Shown here piece by piece: positions 41,023-41,730 of a stretch of 64,000 bases of DNA (position 1 is its first letter; every line of letters starts with the position of its first letter). Made by a program: the position numbers and the translations under genes. Origin of the DNA: the human T2T-CHM13v2.0 reference genome, Homo sapiens; assembly GCF_009914755.1 (NCBI RefSeq), contig NC_060929.1. One strand, written 5' to 3'. The notes under the pieces are model-generated. The model worked only from the letters and a program-made list of their open reading frames with translations. It was not told where the DNA came from and searched no databases.

Positions 41023-41240
41023 TGCCATGGTCCTGCAATAGAACACCTCCAACCAACACCAGCAGGTGTACTCCAGTCTCATCCTCAGGTTGTCCAGCTA
41101 AAAGGGGAGTAATCTGCAGGTGCTAATATAAGTGCAATGCTCCTATAGGAGCTCCTGTAGTATCTTTGCAAAGATGTAGGGACCAACTGTGTACAGTCCA
41201 TCTTCTAGTTCACAATAAAGCACTGGTCTTTCCAAGTGAC
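41023..41240 (-). pseudogene. Processed ABCG8-like fragment (ABC2 transmembrane region), decayed
   Basis: Reads [50 protein letters not shown]...WLEVFYCRTMA versus recalled ABCG8 [51 protein letters not shown]...WLVVFCCRIMA; two stops, one deletion, no intron at AK|IL. Confidence 0.85.
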
Positions 41241-41730
41241 CTTGAATCTTAATCTGTGCACTATCCTGGCTTAGAGATGTGGATATCCCAGTGATACCAG
41301 GTTCTTATAGTTTTTCTTGTCTTTTCTTCTTTTTTGAGACAGAGTCTTGCTCTGTCGGCCAGGCTGGAGTGCAGTGGCATGCTCTTGGCTTGCTGCAACC
41401 TCCGCCTCCTGGGCTCAAGCAATTCTCCTTACTCAGCCTCCCAAGTAGCTGAGATTACAGATGTGTGCCACCACGCCCAGCTAATTTTTGAATTTTTCGT
41501 AGAGACAGGGTTTCACCATGTTGGTCATGCTGGTCTTGAACTCCTAACCTCAGGTAATCCGCCCGCCTAGGCCTTCCATCCTATAGTTTTTCAACACTAA
41601 ACCTCTGTGTATAGTCTTAGAAAAGTCCAGATATTCTCACATGTCCTGAGAGAAATCTACAGCCACATCCCTGAATTTCACTGATCCAGGGTCAATCTTC
41701 CTCAGTGTTTTCTTCTGGAAAAACACAGTC
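41241..41730 (-). pseudogene. Processed KRAB-A/B box fragment, split by an Alu (41317-41579)
   Basis: 41687-41581 reads GSVKFRDVAVDFSQDM*EYLDFSKTIHRGLVLKNY; after the Alu, KNLVSLGY then (1-nt shift) ISKP; A and B boxes contiguous with no intron. Confidence 0.85.
41317..41579 (-). mobile_element. 5'-truncated AluS inserted in the KRAB relic
   Basis: TSD C(T/C)TATAGTTTTTC at 41304-41316 and 41580-41592. Confidence 0.9.

What the first reader, a model, noticed from the sequence alone, without database searches (positions are those of the whole stretch)
41023..41730. Retrocopy relic of a KRAB-ABCG8 chimeric transcript inside a RAPGEF6 intron
Seen on the minus strand, after removing the Alu at 41317-41579 and one TSD copy: a pre-KRAB leader-like segment (DCVFPEENTEED), KRAB-A ([38 protein letters not shown]), a decayed KRAB-B start (ISKP...RL..QG), then directly [51 protein letters not shown]. 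The last part matches my recall of the ABCG8 sterol-transporter transmembrane region. There is no intron between KRAB-A and -B, which are normally separate exons. The ABCG8 similarity starts at GT (41240), and 77 nt later runs through AK|IL, matching my recall of one whole ABCG8 exon spliced to the next. The junction CAA G|GT CAC keeps QG in frame with ABCG8. Inference: a spliced KRAB-ABCG8 fusion mRNA once existed and was retrotransposed before the AluS insertion. It could have come from an extinct or lineage-specific chimeric gene, trans-splicing, or an RT template switch. I know of no KRAB plus ABC-transmembrane protein. Stops and frameshifts show this copy is dead.
Basis: partly seen in the sequence, partly recalled or inferred. 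Interest (0 to 1): 0.92.

Follow-up and report, generated by a model that had tools for sequence, protein, structure and literature searches.

The report
Dead KRAB–ABCG8 chimeric cDNA relic
An intron of human RAPGEF6 holds an old, dead, intron-free DNA copy in which the start of a KRAB zinc-finger gene message is joined to a short inner piece of the ABCG8 sterol-transporter message; it is a real curiosity of reverse transcription but shows no sign of function.

Summary
On the minus strand, 41687-41022 reads: a KRAB-A exon, split by an Alu with a 14-nt target duplication; the first 45 nt of a 96-nt KRAB-B exon; one whole 77-nt ABCG8 exon; and the first ~150 nt of the next, 268-nt ABCG8 exon. 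The KRAB-A/B intron and the 662-nt ABCG8 intron are both missing, so both parts came from spliced RNA. ABCG8 similarity starts at 41240, within about 3 nt of the exon's first base. Identity to present ABCG8 is 157/213 nt (K2P 0.33), so the relic is old.

The ABCG8 piece stops mid-exon. I found no poly(A), no flanking duplication, no other ABCG8 exon and no zinc finger nearby. The junction cuts KRAB-B mid-exon, and only 1 of 57 human KRAB-B-like sites has the GT that splicing would need there. No second copy or intron-bearing parent was found in the genome.

Most likely (~0.55) this is a one-off composite cDNA joined without splicing (template switch or end joining) and inserted non-canonically. 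A retrocopy of a truly spliced fusion RNA remains possible (~0.2).

It adds a member to a known kind of element. Interest is low to moderate.

The parts
41688..41730 (-). Putative upstream (pre-KRAB) exon of the parent zinc-finger mRNA; unverified, and the 5' limit is arbitrary
   Evidence: It has no relative in the genome or in 11 KZNF loci. It does not look like the pyrimidine-AG intron end that precedes KRAB-A in the genes. KRAB-A homology starts exactly at the exon's first base, which suggests a spliced upstream exon rather than a random 5' truncation (inference).
41579..41687 (-). KRAB-A exon relic, 5' part (includes the first copy of the Alu target duplication, 41579-41592)
   Evidence: Pfam KRAB E 2.1e-5, 24.5 bits, above the cut-off. 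DNA matches to chr19 and chr7 KRAB-A exons start at 41687. There is an in-frame TGA.
41317..41578 (-). Alu with an A-rich tail, inserted into KRAB-A after the relic formed; it appears to lack the start of a full-length Alu (by eye, not measured)
   Evidence: 76-81% identity over 244-280 nt to longer Alu copies in the ABCG8 locus. Flanked by a 14-nt direct repeat, 13/14 identical. Subfamily not determined.
41303..41316 (-). Second copy of the Alu target-site duplication
   Evidence: family D8: 41303-41316 against 41579-41592.
41288..41302 (-). KRAB-A exon relic, 3' end (...NLVSLG)
   Evidence: Matches the KRAB-A exon ends of L015, L014, L011, L018 and L019 up to CACTGG. The excised exon totals 124 nt against 127 nt.
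41241..41287 (-). KRAB-B relic: only the first 45 of 96 exon positions, with several small indels
   Evidence: Global alignment to two KRAB-B exons. Shuffle p 0.001 and 0.041. No similarity to ABCG8's preceding exon (p 0.37) or intron end (p 0.94).
41164..41240 (-). Complete 77-nt ABCG8 exon (gene copy at chr2 43879740-43879816 of this assembly)
   Evidence: tblastn E 7.6e-11.
41022..41163 (-). First ~150 of 268 nt of the next ABCG8 exon, joined with no intron; contains a 3-nt insertion and a 12-nt net deletion, and stops mid-exon
   Evidence: tblastn E 4.3e-4. Two in-frame TAG stops inside the piece, plus a TAG in the first codon after the homology ends.
40850..41016 (+). Isolated ~170-nt inner fragment of an old L1 3' end, antisense to the relic and abutting its ABCG8 end; whether it belongs to the same event is unknown
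   Evidence: 992 first-look candidates in the genome; 39 non-self places scored, at 73-92% identity. Neither flank continues the L1, and no further L1 match lies in 33000-46000. The ~110 nt between this point and the poly(A) end seen in other copies is missing.

Best explanation
This is the decayed remnant of one composite cDNA. The 5' portion of a KRAB zinc-finger mRNA (KRAB-A, half of KRAB-B, and probably an upstream exon) is joined head to tail to a ~220-nt inner piece of spliced ABCG8 mRNA.

Shown: both pieces were copied from processed RNA by a reverse transcriptase.

Inferred: the two pieces were joined without splicing, either by the enzyme switching templates or by end joining of RNA or cDNA fragments, with at most 1-3 nt of shared sequence at the join. 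The product entered the RAPGEF6 intron by a non-canonical route, such as patching a DNA break, rather than by standard L1 target-primed insertion.

This happened long ago (about 26% nucleotide difference from present ABCG8). An Alu later landed in KRAB-A. The relic encodes nothing and shows no sign of function.
For: - Intron loss at two tested exon joins: KRAB-A|KRAB-B and the ABCG8 77-nt exon|next exon, with the 662-nt intron absent.
- Same orientation and direct abutment.
- The KRAB side is cut mid-exon, at position 45 of 96. A GT at that codon occurs in only 1 of 57 strict KRAB-B pattern matches in this genome (54 GGA/GGG, 2 GGC; 0 matches for the reversed control pattern).
- The ABCG8 piece is truncated at both ends: it covers 1.5 exons and ends at ~150 of 268 nt.
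- No other ABCG8 exon lies in 36000-46000, after dropping rows that overlap four Alu intervals.
- No zinc-finger or other Pfam domain was found in 55 minus-strand and 49 plus-strand ORFs of >=22 aa in 38400-43300; Alu-overlapping ORFs were dropped.
- No flanking direct repeat apart from the Alu target duplications and short chance-like repeats. The upstream flank against the downstream flank and 7 L1 copies gives shuffle p 0.12-0.91.
- No poly(A) follows the ABCG8 end.
- Only one copy of the junction in the genome.
- RNA-derived patches without target duplication or poly(A) are described as class 2 templated sequence insertions (Onozawa & Aplan 2016, sections read). LINE template-switch chimeras of mRNAs are described in Gogvadze et al. 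2007 (background section).
Against: - ABCG8 similarity begins within about 3 nt of the exon's first base. For a random breakpoint I estimate this at roughly 3-4%: 12 joins times about 5 positions over a 2,022-nt coding sequence. The count of 13 exons is recalled; the 673-residue length is.
- The codon phases of the two sides are compatible (1 in 3 by chance).
- Both facts are what a real splice to the ABCG8 acceptor would give.
- Known LINE template-switch chimeras keep the 3' end and poly(A) of the 3' partner and have flanking repeats. Neither is seen here, so that specific route needs later loss.
- The break-repair route cannot be shown positively without the empty site.
Confidence: 0.55

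Rival explanations
1. Retrocopy of a genuinely spliced fusion RNA. A KRAB zinc-finger pre-mRNA, using a cryptic donor inside KRAB-B, was cis- or trans-spliced to the normal acceptor of the 77-nt ABCG8 exon. That RNA was reverse-transcribed, and the 3' part, poly(A) and flanking duplication were later lost.
For: - The ABCG8 part starts at the exon's first base, give or take about 3 nt, and the codon phases fit.
- One of 57 KRAB-B-like sites has CAG|GTAAAG at exactly this codon, so such a donor can exist.
- Splice-site-bounded mRNA/L1 chimeras, read as possible trans-splicing, are reported by Law & Burns 2025 (preprint, section 24 read).
Against: - The donor side is mid-exon, and 56 of 57 KRAB-B-like sites lack GT there.
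- No parent locus or second copy in the human genome.
- No ABCG8 3' exons, poly(A) or flanking duplication, so several later deletions are required.
- The KZNF matches found are on chr19 and chr7, while ABCG8 is on chr2.
Confidence: 0.2
2. Two independent events. A KZNF retrocopy and an ABCG8 retrocopy (or fragment) landed next to or inside each other, and a later deletion brought mid-KRAB-B and the ABCG8 exon start together.
For: The region is old and heavily rearranged. An isolated L1 piece is broken at both ends right beside the relic. Both partners are truncated.
Against: - It needs two rare insertions at one spot, in the same orientation, plus deletions.
- No leftover zinc fingers, ABCG8 exons or poly(A) remain on either side.
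- The exon-border coincidence is still unexplained.
Confidence: 0.15
3. Capture by an LTR retroelement or retroviral reverse transcriptase. Repeated template switches picked up inner pieces of two host mRNAs inside a retroelement that has since decayed beyond recognition.
For: LTR-mediated retrocopies are often partial and chimeric (review by Casola & Betran 2017, passages read). Both pieces here are inner fragments.
Against: - No LTR, RT or gag-like signal in the ORFs of 38400-43300.
- The flanks 41731-42100 and 40640-40850 are essentially unique.
- The only neighbouring repeats found are L1 and Alu.
- No repeat library was available, so very old LTRs could have been missed.
Confidence: 0.05

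Closest known systems
LINE-mediated chimeric retrogenes formed by template switching (as summarised in Gogvadze et al. 2007, BMC Genomics 8:360; background section read)
   Same: DNA copies of two different cellular transcripts fused directly, in the same orientation. The 3' partner is truncated at its 5' side.
   Different: Here the 5' partner is not a full-length RNA: it stops in KRAB-B. The 3' partner lacks its own 3' end and poly(A). No flanking direct repeats are detectable. The 5' truncation of the 3' partner falls on an exon border rather than at an arbitrary site.
Class 2 templated sequence insertions (RNA-derived patches at DNA double-strand breaks; Onozawa & Aplan 2016, Front Chem 4:43; abstract and sections 5 and 9 read)
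   Same: The insert derives from transcribed, here demonstrably spliced, sequence. There is no target-site duplication, no poly(A) and no need for the RNA's 3' end.
   Different: Those cases are recent polymorphisms with a known empty site. Here the event is ancient, the empty site is unknown, and two (perhaps three, with the L1 piece) sources are combined. NHEJ signatures at the insert borders could not be tested.
mRNA/L1 chimeric insertions with splice-site-bounded junctions (Law & Burns 2025 preprint, doi 10.1101/2025.02.02.635956; abstract and section 24 read)
   Same: Exons of a gene joined to an unrelated RNA, with one side of the junction exactly at a splice site. Trans-splicing is considered as a mechanism.
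   Different: In those cases the 5' exons end at donors and the 3' partner is a near full-length L1 with poly(A) and a target duplication. Here the precise side is an acceptor, the donor side is mid-exon, the 3' partner is an mRNA piece, and the target-primed insertion hallmarks are absent.
Processed ABC-transporter pseudogenes (Piehler et al. 2008, BMC Genomics 9:165; Table 1 and passages read)
   Same: An intronless copy of an ABC transporter message.
   Different: That catalogue of 22 lists no ABCG8-derived pseudogene and none on chromosome 5 ('ABCG8', 'chromosome 5' and '5q31' each occur 0 times in the main text). This one is a 220-nt inner fragment fused to KRAB, at 74% identity, probably below their BLAST cut-off.

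Membership tests
KRAB box (Pfam PF01352) | Match to the KRAB-A profile above Pfam's gathering score | tested here: met
   24.5 bits against a cut-off of 20.4, E 2.1e-5, profile positions 1-35/42, with the TGA read as X. 20.8 bits without read-through.
ABCG8 (ABC2_membrane, PF01061) | Specific similarity to the ABCG8 membrane domain, and a match to the family profile | tested here: inconclusive
   Specificity is met. All 5 PDB hits are ABCG8, E 3e-7. The genome search finds only the ABCG8 exon. A 213-nt DNA alignment runs across two exons. The Pfam profile match is below the cut-off, 15 bits against 26.9, because the fragment is short and decayed.
Processed pseudogene made by standard L1 target-primed insertion | Loss of introns | tested here: met
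   The KRAB-A|B join and the ABCG8 exon|exon join both lack introns.
Processed pseudogene made by standard L1 target-primed insertion | Contains the 3' end of the parent mRNA followed by poly(A) | tested here: not met
   The ABCG8 part stops at ~150 of 268 nt of an inner exon. An antisense L1 fragment follows directly. No further ABCG8 exon lies in 36000-46000.
Processed pseudogene made by standard L1 target-primed insertion | Flanking target-site duplication | tested here: inconclusive
   None found. At this age a 10-20-nt duplication could have decayed, and the true insert borders are unknown.
LINE template-switch chimeric retrogene | 5' part is a full-length copy of a cellular RNA | tested here: not met
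   The KZNF part ends after 45 of 96 nt of KRAB-B, and no zinc fingers follow. Its 5' end cannot be judged.
LINE template-switch chimeric retrogene | Both parts directly joined in the same transcriptional orientation | tested here: met
LINE template-switch chimeric retrogene | 3' part is a 5'-truncated copy that keeps its 3' end, with the whole flanked by short direct repeats | tested here: not met
   It is 5'-truncated, but the 3' end and poly(A) are absent and no direct repeats were found.
Class 2 templated sequence insertion (break-repair patch) | RNA-derived insert lacking target duplication, poly(A) signal and poly(A) tract | tested here: met
   Spliced origin. No poly(A) or duplication. 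The absence could also be due to decay.
Class 2 templated sequence insertion (break-repair patch) | NHEJ marks (microdeletion, microhomology, untemplated bases) at the insert/target junctions | not testable with these tools
   This needs the empty orthologous site.
Retrocopy of a spliced fusion transcript | Both sides of the fusion junction fall on exon borders of the parent genes | tested here: not met
   Acceptor side: yes, within about 3 nt. Donor side: mid-exon, and GT is available in 1 of 57 KRAB-B-like sites.

The most novel reading that the evidence does not exclude
In an early mammal a KRAB zinc-finger pre-mRNA was really spliced, in trans or within a since-lost chimeric locus, through a cryptic donor in KRAB-B onto the ABCG8 acceptor. 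This gave an in-frame KRAB-ABC-membrane fusion message, and this relic is the only surviving record of it.
Probability: 0.15. Interest if true: 0.55.

Novelty: new member of a known kind. Interest (0 to 1): 0.3.

Why it matters
The relic is a clean, datable example of two unrelated messenger RNAs being recombined and written back into the germline without the usual L1 hallmarks. The junction sits on a splice acceptor on one side only. Cases like this bear on how often reverse transcriptases or break repair shuffle exons, and on whether trans-splicing feeds such events.

It also adds an ABCG8-derived pseudogene fragment that is absent from the published catalogue of 22 ABC pseudogenes.

It has no visible consequence for RAPGEF6, ABCG8 or KRAB biology. 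It is a dead fragment deep in an intron.

Tried and rejected
- **Second copy or parent locus in the genome.** The DNA query 41000-41316 found only itself. The protein query found itself and the ABCG8 exon. The leader query found only itself.
- **Parent KRAB gene.** There is no close match: 72-92% over short stretches of many chr19 genes, and 73-79% over the whole exon.
- **ABCG8 similarity running upstream of the exon border.** Rejected. The 47 nt upstream match KRAB-B (p 0.001 and 0.041), not the preceding ABCG8 exon (p 0.37) or the intron end (p 0.94).
- **Relic inserted into an L1 whose other half lies upstream.** Rejected. The upstream flank shows no similarity to 7 L1 copies or to the downstream flank, and no L1 continuation lies in 33000-46000.
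- **Relative ages.** A star-tree estimate puts the L1 fragment's own branch at 0.125 (other copies 0.155-0.249), against K2P 0.33 for the relic versus ABCG8. The L1 copies were chosen as best matches, which biases the estimate low, so I draw no firm order of events.
- **More ABCG8 exons, zinc fingers or other domains nearby.** None. The one extra row, DUF7010 at E 0.047, is taken as chance.
- **Rfam on 39800-42300.** No match.
- **PDB search with the KRAB piece.** No hit at E<=0.01.
- **Natural KRAB+ABC fusion proteins in the large protein database.** 2 candidates, none scored. The tool itself calls this weak evidence.
- **Literature search for KRAB + ABCG8 + chimeric.** 1 unrelated paper, seen in the search listing only.
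- **Literature search for ABCG8 + processed pseudogene.** 4 papers hold both terms. The 3 listed are not about such a pseudogene by title and abstract start, and the fourth was not shown.

Full report
**What is there**

Read on the minus strand, the stretch 41687-41022 is a string of exon relics from two unrelated genes.

1. **KRAB-A.**
   - Pfam's KRAB profile matches above its gathering score: 20.8 bits as is, and 24.5 bits, E 2.1e-5, profile positions 1-35/42, when the single in-frame TGA is read as X.
   - A DNA search of the whole assembly finds 11 non-self places (10 on chr19, 1 on chr7), all KRAB-A exons of zinc-finger genes. No match starts upstream of 41687, and the earliest start exactly there.
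   - In the genes that position is the first base after the intron's AG.
2. **The Alu.**
   - The exon is interrupted by an Alu (41317-41578) bracketed by a 14-nt direct repeat, 13/14 identical.
   - With the Alu and one repeat copy removed in a script, the exon is 124 nt against 127 nt in the genes.
   - It is 73-79% identical to 10 extracted KRAB-A exon candidates from 9 loci, best 97/123.
3. **KRAB-B.**
   - After ...CACTGG, where the genes have GTAAG/GTGAG, the relic continues directly with 47 nt (41287-41241).
   - These align to the first 45 nt of two 96-nt KRAB-B exons. Shuffle p is 0.001 and 0.041.
   - So the KRAB-A/KRAB-B intron is absent.
4. **ABCG8.**
   - From 41240 the sequence is ABCG8. 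A phmmer search of all PDB chains returns five sequences at E<=1, all ABCG8, best E 3e-7, residues 472-501 of 7jr7_B.
   - The own-genome protein search returns only the relic and one chr2 exon.
   - That exon is 77 nt with AG|GT...AAG|GT borders. The next exon lies 662 nt downstream and is 268 nt long.
   - The relic aligns to the two exons joined, without a gap at the join, from 41243 to 41024. Identity is 157/213, K2P 0.33.
   - The 47 nt upstream of 41240 show no similarity to ABCG8's preceding exon (p 0.37) or to the intron end (p 0.94).

**What is not there**

- The ABCG8 part stops at about 41022, some 150 nt into a 268-nt exon.
- No other ABCG8 exon is found in 36000-46000. This used tblastn with 882 stop-to-stop ORFs from 50 kb of the ABCG8 region, with rows overlapping four Alu intervals dropped. 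Only the two exons score, at E 7.6e-11 and 4.3e-4.
- No zinc finger or any other Pfam domain appears in 55 minus-strand and 49 plus-strand ORFs of >=22 aa in 38400-43300, with Alu-overlapping ORFs dropped.
- No poly(A) follows the ABCG8 end.
- The only convincing direct repeats are the target duplications of the two Alus.
- The upstream flank has no significant similarity to the downstream flank or to seven L1 copies (p 0.12-0.91).
- The 'leader' 41688-41730 has no relative anywhere.
  - It may well be an upstream exon, because KRAB-A homology starts exactly at the exon border and the preceding bases do not look like an intron end.
  - That remains inference.
- The junction is single-copy in this genome, and no intron-bearing parent was found.

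**The neighbour**

- Directly after the ABCG8 end lies a ~170-nt fragment (41016-40850) of the 3' region of an old L1, antisense to the relic. The genome holds 992 first-look candidates. The 39 non-self places scored match at 73-92% identity, and the near full-length matches at 73-78%.
- In other copies the L1 runs about 110 nt further to its poly(A) end on one side and continues on the other. Here both continuations are missing, and none is found in 33000-46000.
- Whether this piece was there first, came later, or is a third component of the same insertion cannot be decided. A distance estimate was too biased to order the events.

**How the junction formed**

For splicing:
- The ABCG8 side begins within about 3 nt of the exon's first base. 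The relic reads AAG|GT, the cDNA AAT|GT.
- For a random break I estimate this at about 3-4% (the exon count is recalled).
- The codon phases of the two sides fit, which is 1 in 3 by chance.

Against splicing:
- The KRAB side is cut at position 45 of a 96-nt exon.
- A donor there needs GT in the Gly codon after CAA/CAG. Among 57 strict KRAB-B pattern matches in the genome (0 for the reversed control), that codon is GGT once, GGC twice and GGA/GGG 54 times.
- A spliced fusion retrocopied in the standard way should also carry the remaining ABCG8 exons, a poly(A) tail and a flanking duplication.

Weighing these, I put about 0.2 on a truly spliced fusion RNA and about 0.55 on a non-splice join in a non-canonical insertion. 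The remainder goes to two separate insertions plus deletion (0.15) and an LTR-type capture (0.05).

**Comparison with known kinds**

- LINE template-switch chimeras have a full-length 5' part, a 5'-truncated 3' part, truncations at random sites, direct joining in the same orientation, and flanking short direct repeats (Gogvadze et al. 2007, background section). Here only the orientation, the direct joining and the 5' truncation are met.
- Class 2 templated sequence insertions are RNA-derived patches at DNA breaks with no target duplication or poly(A) and with NHEJ features (Onozawa & Aplan 2016, sections 5 and 9). They fit every feature that could be tested, but their positive marks need the empty site.
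- Law & Burns 2025 describe mRNA/L1 chimeras whose 5' exons end at donors and consider trans-splicing (section 24). This case is the mirror image, with an exact acceptor and an inexact donor, and it lacks the hallmarks of target-primed insertion.
- The catalogue of 22 human ABC pseudogenes lists none from ABCG8 and none on chr5 (Piehler et al. 2008, Table 1 and passages).
- Full-text searches for KRAB + ABCG8 + chimeric (1 unrelated paper, listing only) and ABCG8 + processed pseudogene (4 papers; the 3 listed are not about such a pseudogene) found no description of this relic. Supplements were not consulted.

**Age**

About 26% nucleotide difference from present ABCG8 (K2P 0.33), and 21-27% from present KRAB-A exons, is in the range I associate with repeats that predate or accompany the placental radiation. 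This is inference from general knowledge. No other mammalian genome could be searched here.

**Verdict**

The thing is a real, ancient, dead chimeric cDNA relic, and a new member of a known kind. The claim that a KRAB-ABCG8 fusion mRNA once existed is possible but not the favoured reading. Interest is low to moderate.

Noticed in passing
window 40850-41016 (+): An isolated ~170-nt inner fragment of an old L1 3' end, broken at both ends, directly abuts the ABCG8 end of the relic in the opposite orientation. It could be a third piece of the same patchwork insertion or an unrelated remnant.
   Followed up: partly
window 40304-40665: A second Alu on the minus strand with a long A tail, flanked by a direct repeat CAGAGTTTGAAA (family D4: 40303-40330 and 40613-40640).
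   Followed up: no
G000:C2:84278393-84278425 (-): The only one of 57 KRAB-B-like sites in the genome whose Gly codon is GGT. It reads CAG|GTAAAG, a donor-like sequence inside a KRAB-B exon.
   Followed up: no
window 40640-40850 (-): An A-rich, essentially unique stretch between the L1 fragment and the second Alu. It has one weak relative on chr3 (82% over 68 nt). Origin unknown.
   Followed up: partly
window 43756-43814 and 45194-45230: Stepped, offset BLAST matches to simple repeats in unrelated loci indicate short tandem repeats at these two places.
   Followed up: no
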